Source: a virus
Taxonomy: Duplodnaviria; Heunggongvirae; Uroviricota; Caudoviricetes
Length of the DNA stretch: 64,000 bases
Reading direction: 5' to 3' (one strand)
IMG/VR virus record: IMGVR_UViG_3300046522_000748
Under the pieces are notes generated by a model that saw only the letters and a list, made by a program, of their open reading frames with translations, did no database searches and was not told the DNA's origin. Of this stretch, positions 1,141 to 63,584 are shown in pieces. Each line of letters begins with the position of its first letter. The first letter of the stretch is position 1. Both the position numbers and the translations under genes were made by a program.

Positions 1141-1179
1141 ATTATACAGGTTCGACCCACAGATGTCAATAGTGTTGAC
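1141..1179 (-). promoter_or_regulatory. sigma70 promoter + GTCA-N7-TGAC operator
   Basis: TTGACA-N17-TATAAT; gtcaatagtgttgac 1165-1179. Confidence 0.85.
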
Positions 1180-1665
1180 ATTTGAAGAGGAAGCTGTACA
1201 TCGGAGTATTGGCCTGCAAGTGCTAGAAATGGAGCAGTTACTATTCCACTGCCAAAGCCACCGCCCGAAGGCAAAAGGGTCAGACTGTCCTATTCCGTCA
1301 CGCAGGCAGCCCTTTCTCTGCTCTGTGAAGTGTGATTTCCTTGAACCACAAAAAGCACCGAGGGTCACCGCTTCGACGCCATAAGGCTCCACTATCCCCG
1401 CTGGCCGGTTCTATAGGTGGCTCATTGTCCGGGTCGCCAGTCTTGACCTTGACGTAGATTTGCTCGGGCTCACTCACCTAAGCTGCCATGCTGCGCTACC
1501 GCTTACATAACCAGTCCCTCAGTGCGATTAATCGAAAAAGTGGTTAACCAATTTACCAGAGCAACCGCTTCTGGATTTCAGAAGCTTTATAATAACGATC
1601 TAAATATGACATGTCAATGCCATTGTTTTGTTTTTTGGTTGTGTGTGAGAAAACGCATGCGCACT

Positions 1666-2592
1666 TTAAGAATGCGCAGAGTACTTTTTGAAAAATTGAT
1701 GCGACTGGAATTCTTCAGTCAAAAAGTCAATGAATACTCGCGTTTTGGCGGGCATCAGTGCGCGTGTGGCAAAGTACATAGAGATAGTTCCTGCGTCCCC
1801 ATACCAGTCTGGAACCAATCGGATCAGCTCTCCCTTTTCTATCCATGACAAGGCGTCCGGAACAATGAGAAAAGCGGCCCCTAGACCAAGCAATGCAGCT
1901 TCGCGCATGGCTGTCGCGTCGTTTACGATAATGTCTTCATTTAGCTGTGCGACCATTTCAACGCCTGATGAATCACGCATGCTCCATTGTCTAATTCGGC
2001 CTGAATGCGTTGAGCGCATGACAATCCCTTTAAGATCTGCCAGCTCTTCTGGGTTGCTAGGCAAAGGCTTTCCAGCCATGAACTGTGGCGAGGCGACGGC
2101 AATAACATGCGCTGGGCACAGGGGTCGCGAAATAACGCCCGGCGCCAAATCAAATCCGCCGCCGATGGCTACATCAACGCCTTCAGCAATCAAGTCAGAG
2201 TGACGGTTTTCGAAATGCCATTCGGGCTTGATCAATGGGTACATTGCCATGAATTTTGGGAGCAACGGCAAGATGTGACTGATGCCGAAGGTCGGGGCCA
2301 TGCTAACTTTTAGCAACCCGGCAGGCTCACCTTTGTCGGTGCTTATGGCGCCAATGGCATGCTGAAGTGACTCAAGATGACTGCCGATAGAGGCCAGAAA
2401 TTGCTCGCCGGATTCGGTCAGTGTCAATTTTCTCGTTGAGCGATGGAACAGCCGAACGCCTGTATTTCTTTCAAGCATTGCCACATTTCGGCTGACAGCG
2501 GCGGGTGTGAGCCCCAGGAGTCTTGCTGCCGAGGAAAAGCTACCGGACTCAGCACTGCGGACGAATGATTCAAGGTTTGCGAGGGTTTCCAT
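1666..2592 (-). CDS. LysR-family transcriptional regulator (DmlR/CrgA-like)
   Basis: N-terminal HTH (GSFSSAARLLGLTPAAVSRNVAMLE...RLFHRSTRKLTLT), substrate-binding domain, 308 aa, divergent from oxidoreductase. Confidence 0.95.
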   Translation of the reverse strand: METLANLESFVRSAESGSFSSAARLLGLTPAAVSRNVAMLERNTGVRLFHRSTRKLTLTESGEQFLASIGSHLESLQHAIGAISTDKGEPAGLLKVSMAPTFGISHILPLLPKFMAMYPLIKPEWHFENRHSDLIAEGVDVAIGGGFDLAPGVISRPLCPAHVIAVASPQFMAGKPLPSNPEELADLKGIVMRSTHSGRIRQWSMRDSSGVEMVAQLNEDIIVNDATAMREAALLGLGAAFLIVPDALSWIEKGELIRLVPDWYGDAGTISMYFATRALMPAKTRVFIDFLTEEFQSHQFFKKYSAHS

Positions 2593-2702
2593 GACTACTC
2601 ACCTGATACGAATGCTTGAAGATGATTAAACTCATTTCATACTAATCAAAGGGCAAAAGGAATGCCATTATTACTTAACACAATCACAGAGGAGTTTTAT
2701 AT

Positions 2703-3305
2703 ATGAGTACTATCGGTGTAATTGGAGCAGGCGCAATTGGCTCCGCCTTTGCCAGAGCTTTGGCCAATAAGGGCATCAACGTTGTTATAGCCAACAGTCG
2801 TGGTCCTGCATCGCTGACTGAGCTAGTACGTGAACTAGGGCCACTGGTCAGGGCTGTGCCCCGCGAGGAAGCAGCTGCCCAGGAAATCGTACTTGTGGCG
2901 GTGAACTGGTCTAAATTGCCAGAGGCATTGGCCGGTCTGCCTGATTTTGAAGGGCGAATTGTGATCGATGCGAACAACTCAATTGAGGCGCCTTCGTATA
3001 AGGCAGTGGATTTGCAGGGCCATACTTCGAGTGAAGTTTTCGCCGAGTTTGTCCCAGGAGCCCGCGTGATCAAGGCATTCAATCATCTTCCGTCTCGCTT
3101 GATTAGCAGTGATCCGGCAAAGGAAGGTGGGCGGCGCGTGCTGTTTTTGTCTGGTGACGATAAAAACGCAAAAGCAACAATTTCCGATCTAATTGACAAG
3201 CTTGGTTTCTTCGGTGTTGATCTCGGCCCTCTTAGTGTGGGCGCGAGACTGGCTCAATTCCCTGGAGGGCCGTTGCCATTGCTCAACCTTGTAAAGTTCG
3301 CGTAG
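2703..3305 (+). CDS. NADP-dependent oxidoreductase (F420_oxidored family)
   Basis: GAGAIG Rossmann motif, ANSRGP, IDANN, VIKAFNHL, DLGPL. Confidence 0.9.
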   Translation: MSTIGVIGAGAIGSAFARALANKGINVVIANSRGPASLTELVRELGPLVRAVPREEAAAQEIVLVAVNWSKLPEALAGLPDFEGRIVIDANNSIEAPSYKAVDLQGHTSSEVFAEFVPGARVIKAFNHLPSRLISSDPAKEGGRRVLFLSGDDKNAKATISDLIDKLGFFGVDLGPLSVGARLAQFPGGPLPLLNLVKFA

Positions 3306-3399
3306 GTGCATCCTAACTGGTCTCTGAAGCTTTGGCGCAGCACTAGCTCGCGCTTTTGTTTTAGATAACCTACGTGGATTAAGTAACAAGGCCCACTAT

Positions 3400-3431
3400 A
3401 AAAAAGCCCCAACCTATTGATTGGGGCTTTT
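3400..3431. terminator. Bidirectional intrinsic terminator
   Basis: aaaaaagccccaa-cctattga-ttggggctttt between convergent genes. Confidence 0.8.
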
Positions 3432-3486: not shown

Positions 3487-3984
3487 TCAGAAAGGAATGT
3501 CGTCATCAAAACTGTCAAAGTCAGGTGCCGGTTCTGGCGCTGGAGTTGGCTCACCGGAACCTTGTGGTGCGGTGTTTTGCTTGCCGGTAGTCGATTGTGA
3601 AGGGCGTGGAGCGCGCTGCTGTTGCTCACCACCTTCGCCCGGCTTGCCGCCCAGCAGTTGCATGGTGCCGTTCATGTCTACCACGATTTCAGTGGTGTAA
3701 CGTTTGACGCCATCTTTTTCCCATTCACGGGTTTGCAGTCGGCCTTCCAGATAGATCTGGGAGCCTTTTTTAACGTACTCGCCAACGATTTCAGCTACTT
3801 TACCGAAGAACACTACGCGGTGCCATTCGGTCTTTTCGACCTTCTGATTGGTTTGCTTGTCAGTCCAGGTTTCGCTAGTTGCAAGGGTCAGGTTGGTGAC
3901 CTTGCTGCCGTTAGGCATGTCACGAACTTCAGGATCTCCGCCCACATTACCAACCAGAATTACTTTGTTTACGCCACGAGCCAT
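3487..3984 (-). CDS. ssb: Single-stranded DNA-binding protein
   Basis: [13 protein letters not shown]...TEWHRVV...[15 protein letters not shown]; acidic tail DDDIPF. Confidence 0.98.
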
Positions 3985-10295: not shown

Positions 10296-10334
10296 ATTAT
10301 ACGCATGCCTAGCCACTCTGTCAATATCATTGAC
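10296..10334 (-). promoter_or_regulatory. sigma70 promoter + operator
   Basis: TTGACA-N17-TATAAT; gtcaatatcattgac 10320-10334. Confidence 0.85.
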
Positions 10335-12141: not shown

Positions 12142-12180
12142 ATTATAGCCCTACCACTCGCATTTGTCAACATGATTGAC
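12142..12180 (-). promoter_or_regulatory. sigma70 promoter + operator
   Basis: TTGACA-N17-TATAAT; gtcaacatgattgac. Confidence 0.85.
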
Positions 12181-16315: not shown

Positions 16316-16354
16316 AGTATAACTAACGCATGCAACAATGTCAATGGTGCTGAC
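16316..16354 (-). promoter_or_regulatory. sigma70 promoter + operator
   Basis: TTGACA-N17-TATACT; gtcaatggtgctgac (same 15-mer as 18400). Confidence 0.8.
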
Positions 16355-18375: not shown

Positions 18376-18414
18376 ATTATACGTGACCAGCACTCGATTG
18401 TCAATGGTGCTGAC
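18376..18414 (-). promoter_or_regulatory. sigma70 promoter + operator
   Basis: TTGACA-N17-TATAAT; gtcaatggtgctgac abuts upstream stop at 18415. Confidence 0.85.
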
Positions 18415-20615: not shown

Positions 20616-20653
20616 ATTATACCAGTCAATCAACTGGTGTCAATGCCATTGGC
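20616..20653 (-). promoter_or_regulatory. sigma70 promoter + operator (1 mismatch)
   Basis: TTGACA-N16-TATAAT; gtcaatgccattggc. Confidence 0.8.
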
Positions 20654-22772: not shown

Positions 22773-22801
22773 ATTATATTGATTTCCTCGCTTTTTGTCA
22801 A
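22773..22801 (-). promoter_or_regulatory. sigma70 promoter, palindrome incomplete
   Basis: TTGACA-N17-TATAAT. Confidence 0.75.
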
Positions 22802-22806
22802 TGTCA

Positions 22807-23151
22807 CTATTCAAGTTTGCTGGTGCTGACGACGGTAAAATTGTGAAGGCTTGGGTTTTCCGCCTCCAGTACGCGGTGCAGGTACTCCCAGCTTTCGGCA
22901 GATTTGATTTCAAGGCCCAGACAATGGGTGGTTTCGGCAACACCGCCTTTGTCGCTGGCGCCATACACCCGAGCGAGCGTGTTGGGATTGGCGTCGCCAA
23001 AAATATCCTTGCTTGTGAAAATGAACACGCTGCGCGCCAGATATTCGCCTTCTTTGCAGGCCGGGGTTTTGGTGGTCTGATTCGGTGCCACCGCGAAACA
23101 TTGTGCGGTTGCGGTCATGGCCAGGATCAGTGACAAGGCAAATTTTTTCAT
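22807..23151 (-). CDS. Secreted hypothetical protein
   Basis: Signal peptide, Cys pair. Confidence 0.65.
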   Translation of the reverse strand: MKKFALSLILAMTATAQCFAVAPNQTTKTPACKEGEYLARSVFIFTSKDIFGDANPNTLARVYGASDKGGVAETTHCLGLEIKSAESWEYLHRVLEAENPSLHNFTVVSTSKLE

Positions 23152-23843: not shown

Positions 23844-23882
23844 AGTATACCTAGAACTAGATCGGATGTCAATGCTATTGAC
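23844..23882 (-). promoter_or_regulatory. sigma70 promoter + operator
   Basis: TTGACA-N17-TATACT; gtcaatgctattgac. Confidence 0.85.
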
Positions 23883-25343: not shown

Positions 25344-25382
25344 ACTATAAGGATACTTGCCGCCATTGTCAATACCAATGAC
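25344..25382 (-). promoter_or_regulatory. sigma70 promoter + operator
   Basis: TTGACA-N17-TATAGT; gtcaataccaatgac. Confidence 0.85.
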
Positions 25383-28557: not shown

Positions 28558-28585
28558 ATCATATCGAAAATCGCTATTTTGTCAA
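28558..28585 (-). promoter_or_regulatory. sigma70 promoter, palindrome incomplete
   Basis: TTGACA-N16-TATGAT. Confidence 0.6.
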
Positions 28586-28632
28586 TATTATTTTCGAGTG
28601 CTCTGCGGGAGTTGTTCGAGAGTGGAATGTTA

Positions 28633-32574: not shown

Positions 32575-32613
32575 ATTATGCCCACACCTCACAGAAATGT
32601 CAATATCACTGAC
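32575..32613 (-). promoter_or_regulatory. sigma70 promoter + operator
   Basis: TTGACA-N17-CATAAT; gtcaatatcactgac contains upstream TGA stop. Confidence 0.85.
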
Positions 32614-34871: not shown

Positions 34872-34909
34872 ATTATACCAGTCTATAGACTTTTGTCAAT
34901 GGTAATGAC
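34872..34909 (-). promoter_or_regulatory. sigma70 promoter + operator
   Basis: TTGACA-N16-TATAAT; gtcaatggtaatgac. Confidence 0.85.
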
Positions 34910-40326: not shown

Positions 40327-40365
40327 ATTATAACAAATCCGGACATTGAAGTCAATGCTATTTAC
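40327..40365 (-). promoter_or_regulatory. sigma70 promoter + operator (1 mismatch)
   Basis: TTGACT-N17-TATAAT; gtcaatgctatttac. Confidence 0.8.
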
Positions 40366-43956: not shown

Positions 43957-43985
43957 AGTATAGTGAACCTTGAGACAAATGTCAA
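43957..43985 (-). promoter_or_regulatory. sigma70 promoter, palindrome incomplete
   Basis: TTGACA-N17-TATACT. Confidence 0.7.
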
Positions 43986-44524
43986 TGACACAAACATTAG
44001 TATCTACTCATCATTATTTCATTACCCATGAGTACGCCCGGTGGACGGTAGTGTCTGCTTTGCGTCGCGGCGCAATTCGGAGTAAATCCGCCATTTACTC
44101 GGCCTTGATCAAAGTGGATTTTTCGCCTCTTTTCGACTTGTCGTTGGGCGTTATCGATGAAAATGAATTTTCACAATGGCATGACAATGCCTTGACCGTC
44201 CTAGTCGGCACTGCTGGGCTGGAGAATCAATACGGCTGGGCAGCTAAGATACTGAATGTCTACCTCAAGACCACTGTCTACGTCGCAGGCCTTGGTCGAT
44301 CAGGCTTGATTGAATTGGTTCATCCCCCCATCGACACCGGGCTTTGGGGTGGCTTGCGGGAGCAGTTTCCTGGTCATGATGTGTTGCGTCAGACACATCG
44401 TGTTCAGGCAATTGTGGGTATTGCCAATTTGGCCATCTATCACGACATCATTGATGGGATGAAGCAGATGGCCAATATGCGTCAGTGCCTGCTGATCGAG
44501 CTGGAGCAGTTCTGGCTCAATTAG
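43970..44524 (+). CDS. Hypothetical protein
   Basis: AAKILNVYLK...HPPID motif; 184 aa. Confidence 0.6.
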   Translation: MRQMSMTQTLVSTHHYFITHEYARWTVVSALRRGAIRSKSAIYSALIKVDFSPLFDLSLGVIDENEFSQWHDNALTVLVGTAGLENQYGWAAKILNVYLKTTVYVAGLGRSGLIELVHPPIDTGLWGGLREQFPGHDVLRQTHRVQAIVGIANLAIYHDIIDGMKQMANMRQCLLIELEQFWLN

Positions 44525-48400: not shown

Positions 48401-48439
48401 ATGATAGCCATTCTATTTAGAATTGTCAATCACAATGAC
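48401..48439 (-). promoter_or_regulatory. sigma70 promoter + operator
   Basis: TTGACA-N17-TATCAT; gtcaatcacaatgac. Confidence 0.8.
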
Positions 48440-50412: not shown

Positions 50413-50451
50413 ATCATATCAGAACAAGGTGCCTGTGTCAATACTATTGAC
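50413..50451 (-). promoter_or_regulatory. sigma70 promoter + operator
   Basis: TTGACA-N17-TATGAT; gtcaatactattgac touches upstream stop. Confidence 0.85.
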
Positions 50452-52917: not shown

Positions 52918-52956
52918 ATTATAGGTATCAGCCTTACAAGTGTCAACCATAATGAC
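52918..52956 (-). promoter_or_regulatory. sigma70 promoter + operator (orn)
   Basis: TTGACA-N17-TATAAT; gtcaaccataatgac. Confidence 0.85.
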
Positions 52957-53231: not shown

Positions 53232-53270
53232 GCCAACAGCGTTGACAACTTTAAAAAGCGTCATTAGAAT
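53232..53270 (+). promoter_or_regulatory. sigma70 promoter + operator (1 mismatch)
   Basis: gccaacagcgttgac; TTGACA-N17-TAGAAT. Confidence 0.8.
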
Positions 53271-54438: not shown

Positions 54439-54455
54439 GTTTTTAGTTCCTTGTC

Positions 54456-55126: not shown

Positions 55127-55999
55127 TTAAGCGACTTCGATTTCCCCAAACACTTCATCAGGCTTGAATCCATCGGCATCTACCAGCGATACATCTTTTT
55201 TCAACACAGGTTTGGCTGCGTTGAAGATGACTTCCACCGGGTTGGCCACAGAGCTGAACTTCGGCATTTCGATCACATCGATCTTCGAGCGAATGATCGC
55301 CAATTCAGGGTTGCTGCGTGCCAAGTGCTTCTCAGGCAGCTTCTCCAGTTCCTCGACCGTGAATGGCTTGGAGAAGAATTTGCGTTGCACATAGGTGCCT
55401 CGTTTGAAACTCACTGGATAATCGTTCCAGTTGATGCCGTTCTGGAACAGCAGCTCTTGTTTCTCAGCCCCATTCTTGCCTTTCAGCTGACTCACGGAAT
55501 AAAACTCTGAAGCGGCCATGGTGATACTGTTTTTGGTAGCATCCCACTCGCGCCACAATACCGAGTTCGCTGCTTCTATGGCGGTCGGAACCTGCCAGAC
55601 ACGAGCGTCGAAGGTTGGCAGACGCCGGGCATACTTTGGCATGGTGCGCAGGATTTCGTTGTAAAAACCAATGGTGGCTTGAGCAGCCAGCTGCGAAATC
55701 ATTTTGGTGATTCGGGCGTTAAACCACACAGCCCGTTTTTTGGCGTGCGGGTTGAACACCAGGGTGATTTCATCACTCTGCGTATAACCGATACAGGCGT
55801 TGGTTTCCTTGACCAGAAACTTGGTGGTTTCGATCATCGCATTTGTCATCAACTGATCAAATGGTCGGCCCATGCCTTTGGTGAATTTGCTGAAACCACG
55901 ACCGTCTACACGGGCAATGATTGGAATGCCTGGCATAAATTTACGAGCGGCTTCAAGCCCTTCGTATTCCTTCATCCGGTCGCCAAGTGCGTCGTTCAT
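55127..55999 (-). CDS. tRNA(His) guanylyltransferase Thg1-like protein (3'-5' polymerase family)
   Basis: RMK.YE, RVDGRGFSKFT, YTQSDEITL, FDAR, WRE.DATKNSI, INWNDYP..FKRG. Confidence 0.93.
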   Translation of the reverse strand: MNDALGDRMKEYEGLEAARKFMPGIPIIARVDGRGFSKFTKGMGRPFDQLMTNAMIETTKFLVKETNACIGYTQSDEITLVFNPHAKKRAVWFNARITKMISQLAAQATIGFYNEILRTMPKYARRLPTFDARVWQVPTAIEAANSVLWREWDATKNSITMAASEFYSVSQLKGKNGAEKQELLFQNGINWNDYPVSFKRGTYVQRKFFSKPFTVEELEKLPEKHLARSNPELAIIRSKIDVIEMPKFSSVANPVEVIFNAAKPVLKKDVSLVDADGFKPDEVFGEIEVA

Positions 56000-56057
56000 T
56001 CTATTGCTCCACGATATTTGATAATTGGCTGATCACTTCAGATCAGCTCAAAGTAAT

Positions 56058-56567
56058 TCAGGCGCTGGCCTGTTCAGCGTTTTGAGTCAGCTCGTGCAGA
56101 CGACCTTCACGCTTGAGCATTCGAATATGGCTTTTCGACACACCAAAACGTTCTTTCAATTCGTCAACAGTGCCTTCCGGCGCCGGTTTATTCATTTCAC
56201 GCACTGCCGCTGCCGTTTTGGCTAGATCGCGAGCTTTCTGCGCTTTGCTCAGCTGTTGCTGGTGGCGCTCTTCATTTTTCAGGTCGCTAGCACCCATATT
56301 GAACAGCGATTGAAGCTCGCGTCGATACATGCCCTTCAGGCGCTCCAGCATCCCGACAATCTCGCTGTCTTGCAGATCTGACTCGTACTCTGGCAGTTTT
56401 CCGTAATGCTTGTGGTAAAGGAAAACTGAAATATCCTTGTCCATCTGCCCCATGAGGAGCATCGGGACGTTGCTCATATTAATTGAGCCCATCAGTGCGG
56501 CGCCCATATAGGCTGTCGCCAGGGTCACGTCGAGTTTAATCGGATCGGTCATCGATGTTGCCCTCAA
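56058..56567 (-). CDS. Hypothetical protein, possible C-terminal HTH
   Basis: VDELKERFGVSKSHIRMLKREG. Confidence 0.6.
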   Translation of the reverse strand: MRATSMTDPIKLDVTLATAYMGAALMGSINMSNVPMLLMGQMDKDISVFLYHKHYGKLPEYESDLQDSEIVGMLERLKGMYRRELQSLFNMGASDLKNEERHQQQLSKAQKARDLAKTAAAVREMNKPAPEGTVDELKERFGVSKSHIRMLKREGRLHELTQNAEQASA

Positions 56568-56569
56568 AA

Positions 56570-57004
56570 TTAGTCGTTAATCAGGAACCGCTCTATCAAT
56601 GGCGCAATAATGAGAGCGGCCACAACAGATGCAAAAAAGACCGGTAGGAAGAAAAACAACAGGTTCTGTCTTCCTGTTTGTTTCATGTCAAAAGGCCGGA
56701 CATACACCACGCGCTTTTCACCAACGACCGCTGACGCGAAGGTGCCCACTGACACCTCTCGGTCAAAGAGAATCTTCTCTCCGGCATTCCAGTACGAGAT
56801 CATTGGTCGGTCGTGGCTTTTCCTCGACTGCGCAGCCAGGATCATCTTGGCGTCCACAGTGACGTTTACATCGCGTGGCGTCATGTAATCATTACTCAGA
56901 TACAACGCGGCAAGCGGCGCCAAAACGAGCAATACTACGGCCCAATAGAGCGGGCACTTGTATTGGCGGATCTTGGCTGTCAGCTTTTGCACTGAAACTG
57001 TCAT
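56570..57004 (-). CDS. Membrane protein (start MTVSVQ)
   Basis: Two TMs; ATGA-coupled. Confidence 0.6.
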   Translation of the reverse strand: MTVSVQKLTAKIRQYKCPLYWAVVLLVLAPLAALYLSNDYMTPRDVNVTVDAKMILAAQSRKSHDRPMISYWNAGEKILFDREVSVGTFASAVVGEKRVVYVRPFDMKQTGRQNLLFFFLPVFFASVVAALIIAPLIERFLIND

Positions 57005-57387
57005 GGGTTGCCTGCGTTCGGGTTTGCCGAGTAATTGATGATCGGATTGCGCATTACCATCTGAAGGTTTTGGTAGTGACTGATCCATTCGGCGGCAACG
57101 TTGTTCAGCTCATTCGTCAGCATCGCTACAGCCTCTTCCACACACGACTCCTCGCAATAGGTGAAGCGCATCAGGTGTTTGGTGTCGTCGCACAGCGAAT
57201 GTGGGGCCATGACCGTCTCAAGCTTGATATGGGCGTTGTTCCACATCAAAACGTAGTGCGCATCGGTTCGCCGGGCAAAATACGGCTGCACACTGATCAC
57301 GAAATCCTCGCTGCCATTTTCCCCAGGCGTAGCCGAGACGTAGCAGAGGACGACGGGAAAGTCTTCGCGGTTCTTCTTGGCAGTCAT
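57001..57387 (-). CDS. Hypothetical protein
   Basis: Behind promoter 57421-57459. Confidence 0.6.
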   Translation of the reverse strand: MTAKKNREDFPVVLCYVSATPGENGSEDFVISVQPYFARRTDAHYVLMWNNAHIKLETVMAPHSLCDDTKHLMRFTYCEESCVEEAVAMLTNELNNVAAEWISHYQNLQMVMRNPIINYSANPNAGNP

Positions 57388-57420
57388 GGCATTCGCTCAC
57401 AATCGGTACTTTATTCGATT

Positions 57421-57459
57421 ATTATACTAGCGCCACGGATGATTGTCAATGTATCTGAC
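57421..57459 (-). promoter_or_regulatory. sigma70 promoter + operator
   Basis: TTGACA-N17-TATAAT; gtcaatgtatctgac. Confidence 0.85.
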
Positions 57460-57472
57460 TTAGCTGAACAGG

Positions 57473-57916
57473 CTATTCTGCCTTGAGTAGTTGAACACTC
57501 ACAAACGGGATATCATCGCCTCGATGACATGTGTTTTCGCCGTTATCTTTAATGATTTGCACGAAATTTTTGCAGAAATCTTCTGCTCGCCGCTGAATTT
57601 CCAGCAATTGCTCTTCAGATGGCGCAGTTTCAACCAAAAATTCCACAGAACTGTGCATTCGGAATTCGGTGCTGTACCGTATCGCCACTTTGCGTTGATC
57701 GACGTATTCGTCACGCGTGTAGGGTACATCCAACAGGTTGTCCTCCCACCACTCCAGGAGCTTGTTACTTTGATTGAATTTTTTTCTGACGCCCGCGCCA
57801 TACCAGATGTCATCAGAGATGCCGGTGATGTAGGCACACATATGGCGTTCAAAATTGCCGGTATAGGCACCTGTATTGACTACTACCAAATGGTTTTCCA
57901 TATCAATATCTCTCAT
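57473..57916 (-). CDS. Hypothetical protein
   Basis: TGAYTGNFERHMCAYITG; directly downstream of RNA/terminator. Confidence 0.7.
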   Translation of the reverse strand: MRDIDMENHLVVVNTGAYTGNFERHMCAYITGISDDIWYGAGVRKKFNQSNKLLEWWEDNLLDVPYTRDEYVDQRKVAIRYSTEFRMHSSVEFLVETAPSEEQLLEIQRRAEDFCKNFVQIIKDNGENTCHRGDDIPFVSVQLLKAE

Positions 57917-57947
57917 TTTAAGTTTGGCTAAAGTGCTGAATTTATTG

Positions 57948-57978
57948 AAAAAAAGAAACCACCGTTTCCGATGATTTC
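57948..57978 (-). terminator. Intrinsic terminator
   Basis: GAAAUCAUCG-GAAA-CGGUGGUUUC-U7 on minus strand. Confidence 0.85.
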
Positions 57979-58137
57979 GTTTTAGTCTTGCTTTGCCCGC
58001 TGCGTTGTCAGTACCCCTAGGTGCGCTATAACCGGCATCGCTGACGGCACTGGTCTTCGCGGTAAAGATAGAACCACACTAGCCCCATCGGTGTTCCATT
58101 TAAGGAATTCAGCGATCAGGACGGCTCAAAGCAAGGA
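57948..58137 (-). ncRNA. Structured RNA (sRNA or riboswitch/attenuator candidate)
   Basis: 9-bp closing stem 57987-57995/58127-58135, 8-bp inner stem 58037-58044/58109-58116, own promoter and terminator, no ORF. Confidence 0.7.
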
Positions 58138-58141
58138 TTAC

Positions 58142-58180
58142 ACTATGGCAATCAAATTCTGTTTTGTCAATATTATTGAA
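58142..58180 (-). promoter_or_regulatory. sigma70 promoter + operator (1 mismatch)
   Basis: TTGACA-N17-CATAGT; gtcaatattattgaa contains upstream stop. Confidence 0.75.
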
Positions 58181-58856
58181 TGGCCATATTTTCGGTCGTG
58201 TGAATCTGTGCAATTGTCCCGAAAAGCCGCATATCAATGGCCAGCGCCTCAGCATGAGCCTCCATGATCTCCATTTGGATCATTACAGTGTGCAGACTCG
58301 ACAAGGCGACGGTCAGGGCTCCCTGGATGTCGCCGAACCGGTCGGTGAAGACGGTGCCGCGTGACAAATCAGCGAACGTGCCGCGAACAGCGCAGATGTT
58401 GTCACGCACGGCGCTGATCAACTTGCTCGACGGAGTGTCCATATCCACACCTTGCCAAGGATCAACCGTGGCGTTGTCGGCCATGGACTGCCTTTCCTCG
58501 CGGGTAAAGGCTTTGTCAGGCAGTATCGCCGGTTCGTACGGCGATGGCCCTGTGTCTCGGCAGTGCTGCTCGTAACGCTCCAGCTCTACCATAACGTTGT
58601 CCAGGCTCATGATGCTGCAAGTCATCAGGCCCACGTGGGGCTCAAGACGTTGCGTCAGCAGAGGGATCAGCTCCCGAAGAACATTCAGTTGGCTCCGGAT
58701 TTTTACAATGCTGATTATTCCGCCTTGAACCAAGTGGCTCACGGGTTTTGAGAAATCAGTGCCCCAAATCGGGCGTTTTTTGTAGTTGATGCGATCCTGC
58801 CACTGACCTTCCGAAGTGGGTTTACCGCAGCAATCACACTTGAGTTGCTTTGACAT
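58173..58856 (-). CDS. Hypothetical protein
   Basis: 227-aa ORF. Confidence 0.6.
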   Translation of the reverse strand: MSKQLKCDCCGKPTSEGQWQDRINYKKRPIWGTDFSKPVSHLVQGGIISIVKIRSQLNVLRELIPLLTQRLEPHVGLMTCSIMSLDNVMVELERYEQHCRDTGPSPYEPAILPDKAFTREERQSMADNATVDPWQGVDMDTPSSKLISAVRDNICAVRGTFADLSRGTVFTDRFGDIQGALTVALSSLHTVMIQMEIMEAHAEALAIDMRLFGTIAQIHTTENMAIQ

Positions 58857-58925
58857 GACAATTCCTTGAGAAAAGTGCGTTGAGGCCTGCCTATTTGTAA
58901 TTGGTAAGCCTCAGAAAAAGGGCAT

Positions 58926-59303
58926 TTAGTCGTCTGAGTCTTCGTTGGGACGCACGGTGAGCATTGGCTCCGCGTCAAAGCTGGCAAGCATTTTGGCATA
59001 GCTGGCAGCCAGATTTTCGGCCTGCTTCTTAGCGCCAGCCAGAACGTAGGCTTTCGCTCCTTCAAGCTGATCTTCCGTGCAGTGAACATACCGCGAAATG
59101 GAAAACTCATTCTGATCGGATTGCAGCAACATCAAGGAGTTGAGCTTGATTCGCTCGCCTGAAAACTTGATGTAGTTGCTTGCAGTTTGCTTGACCTGAA
59201 AGCTCTTCACGGTGAGCCGTGGGCACTTGTCATCGGACATGACGTTGACCGACACGCGGTACAGCGTCAGTGGACATTCTTTCAGGATTTGTTCATTGAT
59301 CAT
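58926..59303 (-). CDS. Hypothetical protein
   Basis: Behind promoter 59339-59377. Confidence 0.65.
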   Translation of the reverse strand: MINEQILKECPLTLYRVSVNVMSDDKCPRLTVKSFQVKQTASNYIKFSGERIKLNSLMLLQSDQNEFSISRYVHCTEDQLEGAKAYVLAGAKKQAENLAASYAKMLASFDAEPMLTVRPNEDSDD

Positions 59304-59338
59304 CAGGGCGTCTCGATGAATAAATAATTTATTGGGTG

Positions 59339-59377
59339 ATTATACTGATCAAGCGCCCAAATGTCAATCGTGCTGAC
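59339..59377 (-). promoter_or_regulatory. sigma70 promoter + operator
   Basis: TTGACA-N17-TATAAT; gtcaatcgtgctgac, 1 nt from upstream stop. Confidence 0.85.
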
Positions 59378-59378
59378 A

Positions 59379-59918
59379 TCAGGAGTCCATGAATGCTTTG
59401 GATTCTTTAACGCTACACAAATCCATGATCGGGCCTTGCATCGACGATGGTCTGGTCAGCGAAATCCTTGCGCGCCCCTCAAAGCCGTTGTGCTCATCGG
59501 CCCGCTCAAACCATGCGTAGCCCTGGATCACAGGATTAAATGCCTCAGAGCGGCTTTTGACGACGGGAGCGTCGATTTTCTGCGTGATGTTCTGGCTGGT
59601 GAGAAATTCTTGCGCACGGCGAGCCCAATTTTGCTGTTCTGGTCGTGTCGGCTCCCGGAATTTACCGTCATCCTGCTGCATCATGGTCACGGCCATTTCC
59701 TGCAAAAGCGCCATTGCTCCCAAATACGCATCTTCCTTGGCCTCATGCTCATCTTCTGTCACCAGTCGCGCTTGCACGACGCGGCTGCCAAGGTCTTTAA
59801 GTTTTTCCCAGCCTGGAACCTCTTGCATGCTTTCTTCAACAGCATCCATGGTGCTCTTGCAGGTATATGGCAATAGCTCGCCAAGATCGTTCACAACAGC
59901 GGCGCAGAGTTTATTCAT
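59379..59918 (-). CDS. Hypothetical protein
   Basis: 179 aa, GAGG RBS. Confidence 0.65.
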   Translation of the reverse strand: MNKLCAAVVNDLGELLPYTCKSTMDAVEESMQEVPGWEKLKDLGSRVVQARLVTEDEHEAKEDAYLGAMALLQEMAVTMMQQDDGKFREPTRPEQQNWARRAQEFLTSQNITQKIDAPVVKSRSEAFNPVIQGYAWFERADEHNGFEGRARISLTRPSSMQGPIMDLCSVKESKAFMDS

Positions 59919-59935
59919 AATGACCTCAAATATTG

Positions 59936-59957
59936 AAAGCGCCCCTAAGGGCGCTTT
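59936..59957. terminator. Hairpin terminator after antiporter gene
   Basis: aaagcgccc-ctaa-gggcgcttt. Confidence 0.7.
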
Positions 59958-59975
59958 GTCTTAGTTGTTGGTGGT

Positions 59976-61157
59976 TTACAGTCCCAAGAAACATAGCATG
60001 ATGAAGGTCATAAAGATCACGAAGTGTGTCATGCCTTCGATGGCGTTAGTTTCACCATCACTCACGTTCATGCCTGCCACTACAAGTGTCACGCCGAGCA
60101 TCAGACCTTGCACTGGAGTCAGCGCCATTTCGATATCCTGGTTATTGAAGAGTGCAATGGCTTCAATAACTGGAACTGTCAAAATAACCGTAGAAAGAGT
60201 GGCGCCTAGTGCAATGTTAATTACGACCTGATATCGGTCTTTCATCGCCGCTCGCATCGCCGTAAGCAACTCTGGGCTTGCAGAAATACTGGCCACTACT
60301 AGGGCAGCGAATATTGGTGGCAAACCAGATCCTTCAATACTTACGCCCATCGTTTTTGACATAATTTCAGCCAAAATACCTGTCCAGACAATGCCAACAA
60401 CCATCATCATGATTGAAAAACGTGTGCTTTCGTGCTCGAATTCCTCATCATCTTCAGGGCTTTCGACTGCAATCACACGTTTTTCAGCTTTTGCTTGTTC
60501 TGCTCGTTTCTTTGCTTCGTGCTTTTCATAGTTATAGTTGAAAAAATAACTATGTTCTTTGGTTTGCATGCGCAGAAACAAGGCGTAGAGCAGAATCATA
60601 GTGCCAATGGTGAAAGCGGAATAAACCTTCCATTGACCTGTTGGAAGAAACGCTGGGACAGCCATCGAAATGGCAATCGCCGTAATGATCATGACAACGT
60701 AAACCCGACCGGAATCGTGGTTGTAAATTTGCTCGCCATGTTTAAGGCCACCAACTAGCGCGGCAATACCCATGAGCGCGTTACAATCGATCATCACCGC
60801 TGCGTAAATAGTGTCACGAGCAAGTGTTGGGGATGGCGAATGTTGCATCATAATTGCCAAAATGACAACTTCCACCAGTACTGCGGCAAGGGTCAAAATC
60901 ATTGTTCCGTAGGGGTCGCCTACTTTCTCGGCGAGCACTTCCGCATGGTGCGCAACCCGAATCGCAGTTGCGATAATGGCCCCCACTAGAATGACGGTTG
61001 CCAGACCAGCCACGCCTTTTCCATGGCTTACCAGCATATGCTCAAGAGGATATGCGATCAGCGCAATCAGCGCGGACAGAATAATCAACTTCTCATTGAA
61101 GATTCGTTGATAAATCGATGGTGCTACCCCCAGGATGGGGGCGTTGGCGGTATGCAT
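59976..61157 (-). CDS. chaA: Ca2+/H+ (Na+/H+) antiporter, CaCA family
   Basis: ~11 TMs; HAEVLAEKVGDPYGTMILTLAAVLVEV; SASPELLTA..AA; NAIEG..HF. Confidence 0.9.
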   Translation of the reverse strand: MHTANAPILGVAPSIYQRIFNEKLIILSALIALIAYPLEHMLVSHGKGVAGLATVILVGAIIATAIRVAHHAEVLAEKVGDPYGTMILTLAAVLVEVVILAIMMQHSPSPTLARDTIYAAVMIDCNALMGIAALVGGLKHGEQIYNHDSGRVYVVMIITAIAISMAVPAFLPTGQWKVYSAFTIGTMILLYALFLRMQTKEHSYFFNYNYEKHEAKKRAEQAKAEKRVIAVESPEDDEEFEHESTRFSIMMMVVGIVWTGILAEIMSKTMGVSIEGSGLPPIFAALVVASISASPELLTAMRAAMKDRYQVVINIALGATLSTVILTVPVIEAIALFNNQDIEMALTPVQGLMLGVTLVVAGMNVSDGETNAIEGMTHFVIFMTFIMLCFLGL

Positions 61158-61180
61158 TTTATGTCCTTTGTGTTGGATGC

Positions 61181-62221
61181 TTACTTGGATTTTGAGTTTT
61201 CGTATGCGGTTTTGATGTCTGCAACAATCGTGTCTTGATCGGTGTTCATGACATAGCCTTCAAATTCACTCTTTGAAGCAAATCGCGCTTTGAATTGGGT
61301 GATGAAATCACCCAGCTCCTTGCGCTCATAGCCAGTGATCTCACTGATCAGATGGCCGTTGAATTTTTGCTGGCAGTCCTTCTGGCGCTGAATAACCGAG
61401 AAGATAGCGTCAAACTCGACTTTCGCAGCCGGGAACAGCTCCCACAGGTTTTCCCGTAGCGCTTGGCTGTAGGGGAACCAGTTAAAACGCTTGTGTTTTT
61501 CAGGGTGAGCATCCACCCATTCAATGAAATTCATGTAGCCTGGGCGCTTGAGTACGCCTTTGCGGTCGGCCTCGTTCAGGCGATCAAGACTGAAGACTTT
61601 AGGGTGAAAGCCTTTCCACTCGGAGAAAAATTCGTAGATTTCTTCAAGGTTGTTGAAGCCTTGGCTCCAGCGGTCAGCATCCAGGCACAGGTACTCCAGA
61701 GCGACTTTGAAGTCTCGGGTGAGCATCACCCTTCCCAGCTTGTTAGTGCCTTGCTTGACGCTGTAGGAAAGCCCATTGATGCCAATGCTTAGGCCCATCC
61801 GCGACGTGACTCGCAACAGAATGGTGGATACGTCATTCCACGACAGGTAGCTCACAGCAAATTGCAGTGCTTCGTCCTTTACGCAGATCAAATCAAGCTG
61901 ATAGGCCTTTTCACCATCGATCAGTACGCAGTTCACCATATTGCCGAATTTGCGAAACTCGATCTTTTCAACGCCCAGCTCTTTGGCCAGACGGTGTACC
62001 AGCTTGTCCGGATTGCCACCAAAGCTGTCGTGCGGCACTACGACATCGATATCGCCGTGGTCAGTCTTATCCCGGCAGCTTGGCACCAGCACCGCTGATT
62101 CGGTAGAACCCAAAGAATTCAGGGCCGCGTTGATGGCTTCCAGCGCCTGAGTGGACACACGTTCATATGTGACCTGATCCAGTCGGGAGACGCCGAATTT
62201 TTGAAGTGCCTTGCCGCCCAT
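61181..62221 (-). CDS. Pol-beta-superfamily nucleotidyltransferase-like protein of unknown substrate
   Basis: MGGKAL...VPSCRDKTDHGDIDVVV...YQLDLI (GDxD plus third Asp). Confidence 0.65.
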   Translation of the reverse strand: MGGKALQKFGVSRLDQVTYERVSTQALEAINAALNSLGSTESAVLVPSCRDKTDHGDIDVVVPHDSFGGNPDKLVHRLAKELGVEKIEFRKFGNMVNCVLIDGEKAYQLDLICVKDEALQFAVSYLSWNDVSTILLRVTSRMGLSIGINGLSYSVKQGTNKLGRVMLTRDFKVALEYLCLDADRWSQGFNNLEEIYEFFSEWKGFHPKVFSLDRLNEADRKGVLKRPGYMNFIEWVDAHPEKHKRFNWFPYSQALRENLWELFPAAKVEFDAIFSVIQRQKDCQQKFNGHLISEITGYERKELGDFITQFKARFASKSEFEGYVMNTDQDTIVADIKTAYENSKSK

Positions 62222-62253
62222 TGGGTGACTCCGAATGCCTGATTTAGTCTGCT

Positions 62254-62281
62254 ATTATACTCACCCCTCATTTTTTGTCAA
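62254..62281 (-). promoter_or_regulatory. sigma70 promoter, palindrome incomplete
   Basis: TTGACA-N16-TATAAT. Confidence 0.7.
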
Positions 62282-62395
62282 TGCCAAAAACATAATGATT
62301 GGGATGTCAGCAAGCATTTCGAATTAGGCGTTTTCTTTGAATTGGCATATTGAGCAAATGCGCCCATGTGCCCAGCGCTGCCTTTATGGTTCCGC

Positions 62396-63502
62396 TCAAC
62401 CAAACGCCCCAGCGCGATAGAGTCTTTCCAGATTGTGGGCTGGCCTAAGGTGCTTCTCCGTGCGATTCAAGAAGCTGCTGATGGAACCATTGCTCAGTGA
62501 AAAGCAGCAGTCTGGCCGGACATCGCGCTGGGTAAGCATGCTGGTTGAGGTGGTAGTAATCAACACTTGGGCTGATGACTCAAGCGCACGCTGAAAAGTA
62601 GGGCCTGAGGCTAGATGATGAAGACCGTCCATGTCATCAATGAAGATGAACGATGCCTGCTTGCGCTCTGACTCCGCTGTCTTCATCCAGAAAAAGAAGG
62701 TAATCAGCGTCCTTACCCCAACTGAGGTGTTGCGCAGCAAATTCATGGTTTGGTTGCCAATTCGCTGCCCTATGAATGCTTGGCCTTCCAAATTTTCTGC
62801 GGTCAAGCGGTAGCTCAGCCCGCACTCACGCAGGAACGAGACTAGCTCATCGAGCCAGCCATTTTTCAGGATAGCGGCGCCAAGGTCTCTTCTCCCCTGG
62901 GTAAACCCAATGTAAGAATTGACATCGACTGCGCTGAAATACAGCATATTTTCGACGAAGCTGATGAATTTCTTAAAGCATTCATTCGCCGGGGTTTTTT
63001 CGAGCAGTGAGTTTTTGTGAATGTATGAGGCGATTGAAATGGTGGAGCTGGAAAGATCTCGCTTCAAGTGCTCGGCACCATCTGCAAGGATGGTGGCGCC
63101 TCCACCAAAACGGCGATCAACTTCCGCGTAAAGGCCCCCATCGATTATTATGCGTTCGTACACGAGATCTCCGGGTGCCGAACGAGCGTACGCATAGGTC
63201 AGATCCTGATCATCAAATCGGAATTGATAGGTGAACTCCATCATCTCGGCCCCACTGCCGAGGCTCATGTCAGAATCGTGACTGCCAATTACGTGACTAT
63301 CCGTAAGGTGGCGAGTCAGGTCGAAGATGGCCATACCCAAAGCGGTTTTTCCTGCACCGGAGTTGGCGAGGACAATGCCAGTCTTCACCAGCCGATTCGT
63401 AACCGACGCCTCGCTGAAATCTTGGCGACCCACAGAGCCGAAGTCCAAAAACAACATTTCATCAAAGCATCGAAATCCGGTCGCGGTGAAATAATGGAGC
63501 AT
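62396..63502 (-). CDS. AAA_15/AAA_21-like ABC-type ATPase (degenerate)
   Basis: GFRCF N-terminus; Walker A LANSGAGKT; signature SVGVR; Walker B IFIDDMD; HNLERLY tail. Confidence 0.75.
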   Translation of the reverse strand: MLHYFTATGFRCFDEMLFLDFGSVGRQDFSEASVTNRLVKTGIVLANSGAGKTALGMAIFDLTRHLTDSHVIGSHDSDMSLGSGAEMMEFTYQFRFDDQDLTYAYARSAPGDLVYERIIIDGGLYAEVDRRFGGGATILADGAEHLKRDLSSSTISIASYIHKNSLLEKTPANECFKKFISFVENMLYFSAVDVNSYIGFTQGRRDLGAAILKNGWLDELVSFLRECGLSYRLTAENLEGQAFIGQRIGNQTMNLLRNTSVGVRTLITFFFWMKTAESERKQASFIFIDDMDGLHHLASGPTFQRALESSAQVLITTTSTSMLTQRDVRPDCCFSLSNGSISSFLNRTEKHLRPAHNLERLYRAGAFG

Positions 63503-63545
63503 GGCTAGATTCTCAAGATTTTAGGACATTCAAAAGTGTTGCCTT

Positions 63546-63584
63546 ATGGTACGCATCCAAAAGGCACTTGTCAATATCATTGAC
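63546..63584 (-). promoter_or_regulatory. sigma70 promoter + operator
   Basis: TTGACA-N17-TACCAT; gtcaatatcattgac (same 15-mer as 10320). Confidence 0.8.

What the first reader, a model, noticed from the sequence alone, without database searches (positions are those of the whole stretch)
1141..63584. Dispersed regulon: 20 sigma70 promoters share one 15-bp palindrome (GTCA-N7-TGAC) over the -35 box
Seen: exact GTCA-N7-TGAC at 1165, 10320, 12166, 16340, 18400, 23868, 25368, 32599, 34895, 48425, 49317, 50437, 52942, 57445, 59363 and 63570, and one-mismatch copies at 20639, 40351, 53232 and 58166. In every case one arm is the -35 TTGAC and a TATAAT-like -10 lies 16-17 nt away. The other arm (GTCA) is not required by sigma70 but keeps exact spacing. 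About 8 equally good promoters lack it, which gives an internal control. Established: large replicons use one repressor on many scattered operators (P1 C1, IncP KorA/KorB), producing zygotic induction in a new host. Inference: an undescribed global regulator controls >40 small unknown genes plus an RNA locus. The site is 1 bp longer than the FleQ box (GTCA-N6-TGAC) and fits the LysR T-N11-A geometry. No obvious cognate repressor is in the window.
Basis: partly seen in the sequence, partly recalled or inferred. Interest (0 to 1): 0.88.

Follow-up and report, generated by a model that had tools for sequence, protein, structure and literature searches.

The report
Shared palindromic operator on megaplasmid promoters
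Most promoters in this stretch of a giant (about 1.1 million base) Pseudomonas-type plasmid carry a mirror-image copy of their own -35 box just upstream, most likely the docking site of one still unidentified plasmid regulator; this is a familiar kind of plasmid control circuit that has not been described for this plasmid group.

Summary
GTCA-N7-TGAC occurs 19 times in the window against about 1 expected. Three further exact hits lie inside genes and are chance. All but one of the true sites are minus-strand sigma-70 promoters of the form GTCA(A/G/T)(T/C)-N3-ATTGACA-N16/17-TATAAT. The upstream arm sits at -45 to -42 and is the exact mirror of the -35 box.

The enrichment is specific to the 7-base spacing: every other spacing gives 0-4 hits. 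It also holds among promoters alone: 23 of 49 in this replicon and two relatives, against 0 of 36 in more distant relatives. The arm is kept at orthologous promoters whose proteins are only 44-53% identical. Four complete related megaplasmids lack it.

The best reading is the operator of a clade-specific dimeric DNA-binding protein, probably a repressor that competes with sigma for the -35 box. No reader protein was found. The FleQ and LysR resemblances do not hold up.

This is a new member of a known kind. The scan has reported analogous promoter-operator regulons on other megaplasmids.

The parts
1141..1179 (-). Class-A promoter: GTCAAC-N3-ATTGACA, N17, TATAAT
10296..10334 (-). Class-A promoter: perfect 6+3+6 palindrome GTCAAT-N3-ATTGACA, N17, TATAAT; heads gene 9738-10271
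12142..12180 (-). Class-A promoter (GTCAAT...GTTGACA, TATAAT); heads the 198-aa gene 11515-12111. The orthologous promoter in L124 also carries GTCA
16316..16354 (-). Class-A promoter (GTCAGC subclass, -10 TATACT)
18376..18414 (-). Class-A promoter (GTCAGC subclass, TATAAT)
20616..20653 (-). One-mismatch copy (distal arm GCCAAT), TTGACA-N16-TATAAT
23844..23882 (-). Class-A promoter (GTCAAT, -10 TATACT)
25344..25382 (-). Class-A promoter (GTCATT, -10 TATAGT)
32575..32613 (-). Class-A promoter (GTCAGT, -10 CATAAT)
34872..34909 (-). Class-A promoter (GTCATT, N16, TATAAT)
40327..40365 (-). One-mismatch copy (distal arm GTAAAT; TTGACT, TATAAT)
48401..48439 (-). Class-A promoter of the 490-aa swivel-domain gene 46895-48367. 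The 16-mer GTCATTGTGATTGACA is identical at the orthologous promoter of L122, and GTCA is kept in L124
49293..49331 (-). Class-A promoter (GTCATT, -10 TACACT); the orthologous L122 promoter keeps GTCAAT
50413..50451 (-). Class-A promoter (GTCAAT, TG-extended -10 TATGAT); the L122 orthologue has GACAAT
52918..52956 (-). Class-A promoter of the RNase T-like gene 52270-52884; the L124 orthologue's promoter also carries GTCA
53232..53270 (+). The only plus-strand copy (distal arm GCCAAC, TTGACA-N17-TAGAAT), beside a structured-RNA region
57421..57459 (-). Class-A promoter (GTCAGA, 12/12 core) heading the unit that holds the T4 Y05C-like, 169-aa HTH and Thg1-like genes; the L122 orthologue carries GTCAAT
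58142..58180 (-). One-mismatch copy (distal arm TTCAAT, -10 CATAGT). It is followed by a terminator at 57978-57955, so it probably makes a short RNA
59339..59377 (-). Class-A promoter (GTCAGC, 12/12 core)
63546..63584 (-). Class-A promoter (perfect GTCAAT-N3-ATTGACA, -10 TACCAT) of the 368-aa gene 62396-63502
62254..62291 (-). Degenerate class (GTTTTT at -45), 12/12 core promoter
43957..43995 (-). Degenerate class (GTTTGT at -45). The same GTTT(G/T)T is kept at the orthologous promoter in L122 and L124
40791..40828 (-). Degenerate copy (GCATAT), 12/12 core; the L124 orthologue has an exact GTCATT
28558..28595 (-). Degenerate copy (GAAAAT), TTGACA-N16-TATGAT
22773..22811 (-). Strong promoter (12/12) with no recognisable distal arm (AATAGT): the cleanest 'lacking' control in the window

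Best explanation
The 15-bp palindrome is an operator built into the promoters of one clade of giant Pseudomonas-type plasmids.

Its promoter-proximal half (ATTGAC) is the sigma-70 -35 box itself. Its distal half (GTCAAT, core GTCA at -45 to -42) is a mirror copy placed one helical turn upstream. I infer that a two-fold symmetric DNA-binding protein dimer encoded by this clade reads both halves. When bound, it would occupy the same major groove as sigma region 4. The most likely effect is repression of many very strong, near-consensus promoters, which would keep the small-gene domain of the plasmid quiet in an established host. Expression would then burst when the repressor is absent, for example just after transfer.

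Shown: the motif, its fixed geometry, its restriction to promoters, its graded presence on nearly all promoters, its conservation in relatives, and its absence from sister lineages.

For: 1. Enrichment and geometry. There are 19 sites against 1.14 expected. Only the 7-base spacing is enriched: 19 against 0-4 for all other spacings. The half-site centres lie 11 bp apart, which puts both on one face of the helix (read directly from the sequence).

2. Promoter lock. GTCA sits at exactly -45 to -42 in 15 of 25 minus-strand promoters of the window and in 23 of 49 promoters across the three motif-bearing replicons. No other tetramer or offset stands out. An independent scan ranks these same sites as the best promoters.

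3. Symmetry beyond the -35 hexamer. The distal arm shows T at -40 (14/23) and a purine at -39 (20/23), mirroring A at -36. A 6-base element that is the exact reverse complement of its neighbour is not expected by chance.

4. Purifying selection. At orthologous promoters in L122 and L124, where proteins are 44-53% identical, the arm is kept while the spacer and flanks diverge.

5. Clade specificity. None of 36 promoters in L002 and L125-L128 carries GTCA at -45. Whole-plasmid counts in FeN3W, pBASL58, pMPPla107 and pPL1 are near background, and hardly any of those hits lie on a TTGACA box. This argues for a lineage-specific reader rather than a general property of RNA polymerase.

6. Core strength. 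The window holds 12 perfect TTGACA-N16/17-TATAAT promoters in 64 kb. ATTGACA-N17-TATAAT occurs once in FeN3W and not at all in the other three complete megaplasmids. Strong promoters held down by negative feedback are the documented design of plasmid networks. In R388 all regulators are repressors and ArdK controls five promoters (PMC3937220).
Against: No cognate protein was found. In the window Pfam recognises only a cargo-type LysR, an MvaT-like silencer, SSB and a sub-threshold helix-turn-helix protein. That last protein keeps an identical DNA-reading region in plasmids that lack the motif.

No stand-alone operator occurs away from a promoter.

The direction of the effect (repression or activation) has no direct evidence.

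Nearly all promoters carry at least a degenerate copy. That would equally fit a general transcription accessory factor.

Only 64 kb of a roughly 1.1-Mb replicon could be read.
Confidence: 0.55

Rival explanations
1. The distal GTCA is a positive element. A clade-specific accessory protein, or a class-II-type activator dimer, binds at -45 to -40 and helps RNA polymerase. This would be comparable to the Spx/alpha-CTD contact with the -44 element in Bacillus, or to lambda cI at PRM (both from my own knowledge). It would mark plasmid promoters for preferential use.
For: The arm lies where the proximal UP subsite and class-II activators sit, at -46 to -38. Nearly every promoter of the clade carries at least a degenerate copy, which suits a general factor. 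L124 promoters with weaker -10 boxes still keep the arm.
Against: The core promoters are already at or near full consensus, with 12 perfect ones in 64 kb, so they should not need activation. A dimer on this palindrome would occupy the -35 box and clash with sigma region 4. If only the distal arm were read, its mirror symmetry with the -35 box would have no explanation. No such protein was found.
Confidence: 0.17
2. No plasmid factor is involved. The arm is read by a host component, either RNA polymerase itself or a host regulator such as a FleQ-like protein, and was selected for promoter strength or host-signal coupling in the particular Pseudomonas hosts of this clade.
For: The half-sites resemble the published FleQ box GTCaNTAAAtTGAC (PMC6120874). 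One motif-bearing relative comes from a Pseudomonas viridiflava assembly and the window comes from rhizosphere metagenomes, whereas motif-less FeN3W comes from marine sediment. The hosts may therefore differ.
Against: The spacing is one base longer than the FleQ box, and the N6 form is not enriched (2 against 19). The centre is variable, not TAAA. The arm is not A/T-rich, so it is not an UP element. pMPPla107 and pBASL58 live in plant-associated Pseudomonas and lack the motif. Host genomes could not be searched.
Confidence: 0.12
3. The motif is the target of a DNA methyltransferase with a symmetric bipartite specificity (4-N7-4, as produced by half-size Type I specificity subunits; from my own knowledge). 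Adenine methylation inside the -35 box would tune promoter use, so that unmethylated or hemimethylated DNA behaves differently after transfer.
For: The geometry GTCA-N7-TGAC, with an adenine in each arm, matches symmetric Type I recognition sites. The strict spacing fits an enzyme's specificity.
Against: Degenerate arms (GTTTGT, GTAAAT, GACAAT) are conserved at the same position and at orthologous promoters, which suits graded protein contact better than an enzyme's exact site. The motif is confined to promoters. No methylase or specificity-subunit domain was seen among the window ORFs scanned.
Confidence: 0.06
4. The similarity reflects common descent only: one promoter cassette was copied around the replicon, as with the promoter-bearing repeats of T4-type phages, and the distal arm itself is under no selection.
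For: Two pairs of sites share identical 15-mers: 10320 with 63570, and 16340 with 18400.
Against: The spacers, flanks and inner bases differ completely between copies, including within those pairs. Conservation is position-specific. It persists at orthologous promoters across 44-53% protein identity.
Confidence: 0.03

Closest known systems
ArdK / KorA / StbA network of IncW plasmid R388, with the related conserved upstream promoter repeats of IncN plasmids (PMC3937220; IncN from my own knowledge)
   Same: Several strong promoters of maintenance and establishment genes, scattered over the plasmid, share one operator. In R388 all regulators are repressors and a burst of transcription follows entry into a new host. 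This window also holds an ssb gene, as the ArdK regulon does.
   Different: Here the operator uses the -35 hexamer itself as one half-site. It marks most promoters of a 64-kb stretch of a ~1.1-Mb replicon, against five promoters in a 34-kb plasmid. The regulator is unknown and there is no sequence similarity.
IncP-1 (RK2/RP4) KorA/KorB global regulon and phage-plasmid P1 C1 repressor with its dispersed operators (from my own knowledge)
   Same: One repressor acts on many dispersed operators at promoters of a large replicon. Zygotic induction follows.
   Different: KorA sites overlap the -10 box and KorB can act at a distance. P1 C1 operators are asymmetric 17-mers. Neither is a mirror of the -35 box, and no KorA, KorB or C1 homologue was seen.
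FleQ box of Pseudomonas aeruginosa, GTCaNTAAAtTGAC (Baraquet and Harwood 2016, as quoted in PMC6120874)
   Same: The half-sites are the same (GTCA / TGAC, often GTCAAT / ATTGAC), and the host genus is the same.
   Different: The FleQ box is 14 bp with N6 and an A/T-rich centre. Here the spacing is strictly N7 with a variable centre, and N6 is not enriched. FleQ sites are not locked to -35 boxes.
Promoter-operator regulons reported earlier in this scan on other megaplasmids (e1-5345548, e1-4045455, e1-3083439, e1-1722140)
   Same: One of them (TTGAC-N4-GTCAA on Bacillus-type plasmids) also uses -35-like half-sites.
   Different: The hosts, motif sequences, arm orientations and positions relative to the core promoter all differ. 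I did not re-test those reports.
Phage T4 early promoters (from my own knowledge)
   Same: Many near-consensus sigma-70 promoters stand in front of small unknown genes in one orientation, with extra conserved positions upstream of -35. Neighbouring genes include a T4 Y05C-like protein.
   Different: The upstream element of T4 is A-rich and read by the alpha subunit. It is not a G/C-containing mirror of the -35 box.

Membership tests
Sigma-70 (housekeeping) promoter | -35 TTGACA and -10 TATAAT hexamers separated by 16-18 bases | tested here: met
   All listed sites match. The window holds 12 perfect 12/12 promoters, and an independent scan ranks the motif sites highest.
Sigma-70 (housekeeping) promoter | Transcription actually starts there | not testable with these tools
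   No RNA run holds this DNA. Gene starts and ribosome-binding sites lie 20-60 bases downstream.
Plasmid global repressor-operator regulon (KorA/KorB, ArdK type) | The same operator is repeated at many dispersed promoters and overlaps the core promoter | tested here: met
   20 sites cover -45 to -31, with strict spacing.
Plasmid global repressor-operator regulon (KorA/KorB, ArdK type) | The operator is conserved in related plasmids at the same promoters | tested here: met
   Met for L122 and L124. Sister lineages lack it.
Plasmid global repressor-operator regulon (KorA/KorB, ArdK type) | A plasmid-encoded, usually autoregulated, cognate repressor | tested here: inconclusive
   None was recognised in the 64-kb window or in the 20-kb stretches of L122 and L124. 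The remaining ~1 Mb could not be read.
Plasmid global repressor-operator regulon (KorA/KorB, ArdK type) | Promoters are repressed in the presence of the plasmid | not testable with these tools
   Needs reporter assays or RNA data.
FleQ binding site | 14-bp box GTCaNTAAAtTGAC (N6, A/T-rich centre) | tested here: not met
   N7 gives 19 hits and N6 gives 2. The centre is variable. The consensus is as quoted in PMC6120874.
LysR-type regulator binding site | T-N11-A dyad, typically centred near -65 and next to a divergent lysR gene | tested here: not met
   T-N11-A is trivially contained in the motif. However, the sites are centred at -38, and 19 of the 20 lie 7 kb or more from the only lysR gene (1666-2592). 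The one nearby site (1165) lies downstream of that gene, not in its divergent promoter region. That gene is 74% identical to chromosomal Pseudomonas LysR proteins.
UP element | A/T-rich tract at -40 to -60 read by the alpha C-terminal domain | tested here: not met
   The arm is GTCA, and positions -53 to -46 show no strong A/T bias.
Face-to-face divergent promoters sharing a palindromic -35 pair | A -10 box 16-18 bases beyond each arm | tested here: not met
   No plus-strand -10 lies beyond the distal arm at any class-A site. The arrangement does exist elsewhere, in L150, L152 and L170.
Symmetric Type I methylation site | A matching methyltransferase and specificity subunit, and a modified adenine | not testable with these tools
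   Only the geometry fits. No such domain was seen among the window ORFs scanned.

The most novel reading that the evidence does not exclude
One clade-encoded dimeric protein uses the sigma-70 -35 hexamer itself as a half-site. Through a mirrored copy one helical turn upstream, it gates essentially every promoter of the small-gene domain of a ~1.1-Mb replicon. If the window's density holds, that is some hundreds of sites. The result would be a single on/off switch that keeps a megabase of foreign DNA transcriptionally dormant and releases it as a burst on transfer or on a signal.
Probability: 0.3. Interest if true: 0.7.

Novelty: new member of a known kind. Interest (0 to 1): 0.45.

Why it matters
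Megabase-size plasmids of Pseudomonas impose large and poorly understood costs on their hosts, and most of their genes are unknown. A single cis-element that marks most promoters of such a replicon gives three practical handles. It can serve as bait to fish out the master regulator. It allows transcription units to be mapped without RNA data. And it marks this plasmid clade in metagenomes.

The design is economical and may be general: the operator is the -35 box plus its mirror image, so host promoters would offer only half-sites. The scan has met -35-like palindromes on unrelated giant plasmids too.

Tried and rejected
1. Close relatives by DNA: none in the phage collection. Among plasmids only a short stretch of FeN3W matched.

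2. The viral-contig scan with the promoter-plus-arm pattern returned more than 119 mostly single hits, which is noise. The protein scan of viral contigs found nothing.

3. The genome-contig scan with the 490-aa family found nothing.

4. Expression: no RNA holder is listed for this DNA, so promoter activity and the direction of control could not be tested.

5. Population variation: contigs of four runs were laid on 44001-64000. Only 40 of about 630 differences were printed, and none fell inside a 15-mer. That is too little for a test.

6. Candidate reader 1, the LysR protein at 1666-2592, was rejected. It is of chromosomal type (74% identity to Pseudomonas LysR proteins) and only one motif site (1165) lies near it, downstream of the gene rather than in its promoter region.

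7. Candidate reader 2 is the 169-aa protein at 56058-56567.
   - It lies behind a class-A promoter.
   - Its C-terminal helix-turn-helix is invariant, with sub-threshold Sigma70_r4 and HTH_17 hits.
   - Its model shows a 58-residue helix followed by a 3-helix bundle.
   - pMPPla107 and pBASL58, which lack the motif, keep the same helix-turn-helix.
   - The fold search gave no match.
   - It cannot be a clade-specific reader and is kept only as a weak lead.

8. The MvaT-like protein (36167-36538) binds A/T-rich DNA as a family property and does not fit a GTCA palindrome.

9. Also rejected: divergent-promoter, hairpin/RNA and cassette-duplication readings.

10. The literature search for the motif strings found no paper. 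The pMPPla107 family paper does not mention a promoter motif.

Full report

Yes. The exact pattern GTCA-N7-TGAC occurs 19 times in the 64-kb window. One hundred dinucleotide-preserving shuffles gave a mean of 1.14 and never more than 5. Three further exact hits (17396, 30771, 59229) lie inside coding sequence. They have neither the ATTGACA arm nor a -10 box, and their number is what chance predicts.

The spacing is decisive. For GTCA-Nk-TGAC with k from 0 to 15 the window gives 19 at k=7 and 0-4 at every other k. The reversed arrangement TGAC-Nk-GTCA gives 0-4 throughout.

**2. Anatomy**

Flanks were printed and the minus-strand alignment. With one exception (53232, plus strand), every true site is a minus-strand promoter. 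Read 5' to 3' on that strand the consensus is GTCA(A/G/T)(T/C)(R)N(Y)-ATTGACA-N16/17-TATAAT, followed a few bases later by a preferred CAT around the likely start.

- ATTGAC is invariant in 17 of 19 sites. The other two have GTTGAC.
- The -35 hexamer is TTGACA in 18 of 19.
- The arm sigma-70 does not need (GTCA) lies at -45 to -42.
- The whole 15-mer spans -45 to -31 and is centred at about -38.
- The half-site centres are 11 bp apart, so both lie on one face of the helix.

To avoid selecting on the motif, I listed every TTGAC-N17-19-TAnnnT in the window. Of 25 minus-strand promoters, 15 carry GTCA at exactly that offset. An independent consensus scan of 44001-64000 ranks these same sites as the best promoters of the region.

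Roughly 50 minus-strand ORFs lie downstream of exact sites, 12 behind one-mismatch sites and 20 behind the rest. These are upper bounds because terminators were ignored.

**3. The "controls" are not clean controls**

I pooled 49 promoters from the window and its two motif-bearing relatives. The 26 without an exact GTCA still have G at -45 in 18, T at -40 in 18 and A at -42 in 15. Among 36 promoters of more distant relatives, G at -45 occurs only 3 times.

The variants are GTTT(G/T)T, GTAAAT, GACAAT and GCCAAT. One of them, GTTT(G/T)T, is kept at the orthologous promoter of the 130-aa gene (43550-43942) in all three replicons. So nearly every promoter of this clade carries the element in graded form. 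Only a few, such as 22773-22811, have none.

The A at -36 is not specific to the operator, because the distant relatives share it.

**4. What the replicon is**

- A window protein is recorded on a contig of 1,136,521 bases, and the DNA is held by rhizosphere metagenome runs.
- There are no tRNA genes and no Rfam families in the window.
- Genes are mostly small, unknown and on the minus strand.
- Recognisable ones include SSB, HSP20, two Mrr-type nucleases, an RNase T-like exonuclease, a Thg1-like enzyme, a Stealth-type transferase, a Na/Ca exchanger, an MvaT-like silencer and a LysR regulator.
- The nearest complete relative by protein is the 910-kb plasmid of Pseudomonas sp. FeN3W, at 47% identity for the 490-aa protein.
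- A 169-aa protein is shared at about 40% identity with pMPPla107 and pBASL58.
- Earlier notes of this scan also call the molecule a ~1.1-Mb plasmid-like element.

**5. Comparative evidence**

Two relatives carry the motif:

- L122 is a 76-kb contig from a public run. It is syntenic with window 37.8-59.9 kb, with proteins 35-64% identical.
- L124 is a Pseudomonas viridiflava assembly contig, with proteins around 30-69% identical.

In L122, 3 of 12 promoters have an exact GTCA at -45 and several more are one mismatch away. In L124 the figure is 6 of 9.

At the orthologous promoter of the 490-aa gene, the 16-mer GTCATTGTGATTGACA is identical in the window and L122. L124 has GTCAGCGTTATTGACA. FeN3W and L125 have unrelated bases upstream of the same ATTGACA. 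The arm is also kept at the orthologous promoters of the 77-aa, RNase T-like, 198-aa and Y05C-unit genes.

Elsewhere the arm is missing:

- None of 36 promoters in FeN3W (L002) and L125-L128 has it.
- Whole-plasmid counts are near background: FeN3W has 23 sites in 910 kb against 10 for the reversed control; pBASL58 has 6; pMPPla107 has 18 and pPL1 has 16. Hardly any of these lie on a TTGACA box.

The clade also stands out for the perfection of its core promoters. The window has 12 perfect TTGACA-N16/17-TATAAT and L122 has 4 in 21 kb. ATTGACA-N17-TATAAT occurs once in FeN3W and never in the other three megaplasmids.

**6. Mechanism**

The arm is the exact mirror of the adjacent extended -35 box over six bases. 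It has a strict one-turn spacing, it is under purifying selection, and it is confined to one lineage. Together these point to a two-fold symmetric reader that this lineage has and its sisters lack.

A dimer bound to both halves would sit in the major groove that sigma region 4 needs. The promoters are already at full consensus and should not need help. I therefore favour repression by competition. Strong promoters held down by negative feedback, with a transcriptional burst on entry into a new cell, are the documented logic of plasmid networks. In R388 all regulators are repressors and ArdK controls five promoters, including that of ssb (PMC3937220).

Confidence is about 0.55.

**7. Rivals**

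- (a) A positive accessory factor or class-II activator at -45 to -40 (0.17). This suits the near-universal presence of the element. It does not suit the consensus cores or the mirror symmetry.
- (b) A host reader (0.12). The published FleQ box has the same half-sites but is 14 bp with an A/T-rich centre (PMC6120874). The N6 form is not enriched here, and plant-associated Pseudomonas megaplasmids lack the motif.
- (c) A symmetric Type I-like methylation site inside the -35 box (0.06). The geometry fits. The conserved degenerate arms and the promoter lock argue against it, and no methylase domain was seen.
- (d) Copied promoter cassettes (0.03). Spacers and flanks differ even between sites that share identical 15-mers.
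- Divergent promoters were tested and rejected, because no -10 box lies beyond the distal arm.

**8.

Pfam scans of about 100 ORFs found no classical repressor fold.

The LysR protein is of chromosomal type and is not associated with the sites.

The 169-aa protein (56058-56567) lies behind a class-A promoter. Its C-terminal helix-turn-helix is invariant and gives sub-threshold Sigma70_r4 and HTH_17 hits. Its model has a long helix followed by a three-helix bundle. However, the same helix-turn-helix is kept in motif-less pMPPla107 and pBASL58, and no fold match was found. It cannot explain a clade-specific arm.

**9. Novelty**

No paper in the library contains the motif strings. The pMPPla107 family paper does not mention a promoter motif.

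The circuit type is well known: one operator on many plasmid promoters. This scan has already reported analogous regulons on other megaplasmids, including one on a Pseudomonas megaplasmid-like element and one with TTGAC-type half-sites on Bacillus-type plasmids. I did not test those reports.

I therefore class this as a new member of a known kind. It has two unusual traits: the operator recruits the -35 hexamer as its own half-site, and it marks nearly all promoters of the region.

**10. Limits**

- Only 64 kb of the replicon and 20-kb pieces of two relatives could be read.
- There is no expression data.
- The population-variation table was truncated.
- Both genome-collection scans were uninformative.

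Noticed in passing
window 36167-36538 (+): An MvaT-type xenogeneic silencer homologue (PF22055, E 5.8e-20) sits in a plus-strand block, opposite to most genes. A plasmid-borne silencer would be a second, sequence-unspecific layer of transcriptional quieting on this replicon.
   Followed up: partly
window 56058-56567 (-); L122 5541-6065; L251 5923-6420; L252 5953-6438: A 169-aa protein family has an invariant C-terminal helix-turn-helix (APEGTVDEL..GVSKSHIRxLKREGRLHEL) following a 58-residue helix. It is conserved from this replicon to pMPPla107 and pBASL58. It matches no Pfam family above threshold and no PDB fold. It is probably a backbone DNA-binding protein of these megaplasmids.
   Followed up: partly
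window 57955-58180 (-): The one-mismatch promoter at 58142-58180 is followed about 190 nt downstream by a strong terminator (10-bp stem, T-run) with no ORF between them. This points to a short non-coding RNA, as another note on this window suggests.
   Followed up: no
window 52970-53270 (+): Two plus-strand promoters (52970 and 53242) and a terminator-like hairpin (53205-53220) lie in an ORF-poor stretch, back to back with the minus-strand class-A promoter at 52918-52956.
   Followed up: no
L150 984-1046, L152 3389-3451, L170 7575-7637 (Clostridia assemblies): The same palindrome TGTCAAT-N3-ATTGACA occurs with a TATAAT 17 bases beyond each arm, forming face-to-face divergent promoters that share a mirrored -35 pair. 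More than 100 single copies of the one-sided form turned up, mostly in Clostridia assemblies. The half-sites also fit the TGTNA-N7-TNACA box of GlnR/TnrA (from my own knowledge).
   Followed up: no
window 43957-43995, 62254-62291; L122 4699, 14439; L124 3538, 15445: A second recurrent upstream word, GTTT(G/T)T, sits at the same -45 position and is conserved at one orthologous promoter in all three replicons. It could be a weak form of the operator or the site of a different reader.
   Followed up: partly
window 46895-48367 (-) and relatives (alignment A1): A 490-aa family has a phospho-histidine swivel domain (invariant GGxxAH...VGRE) fused to an unknown 380-aa region. It is found only on giant plasmids and metagenomic contigs (16 clusters), always behind a strong promoter.
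   Followed up: no
window 55127-55999 (-), 52270-52884 (-), 3487-3984 (-), 40885-41889 (-): A Thg1-like tRNA-His guanylyltransferase, an RNase T-like exonuclease, SSB and a Stealth-type transferase sit among the small unknown genes. Syntenic copies in L122 lie next to a T4 Y05C-like protein, which gives the region a phage-early flavour.
   Followed up: no
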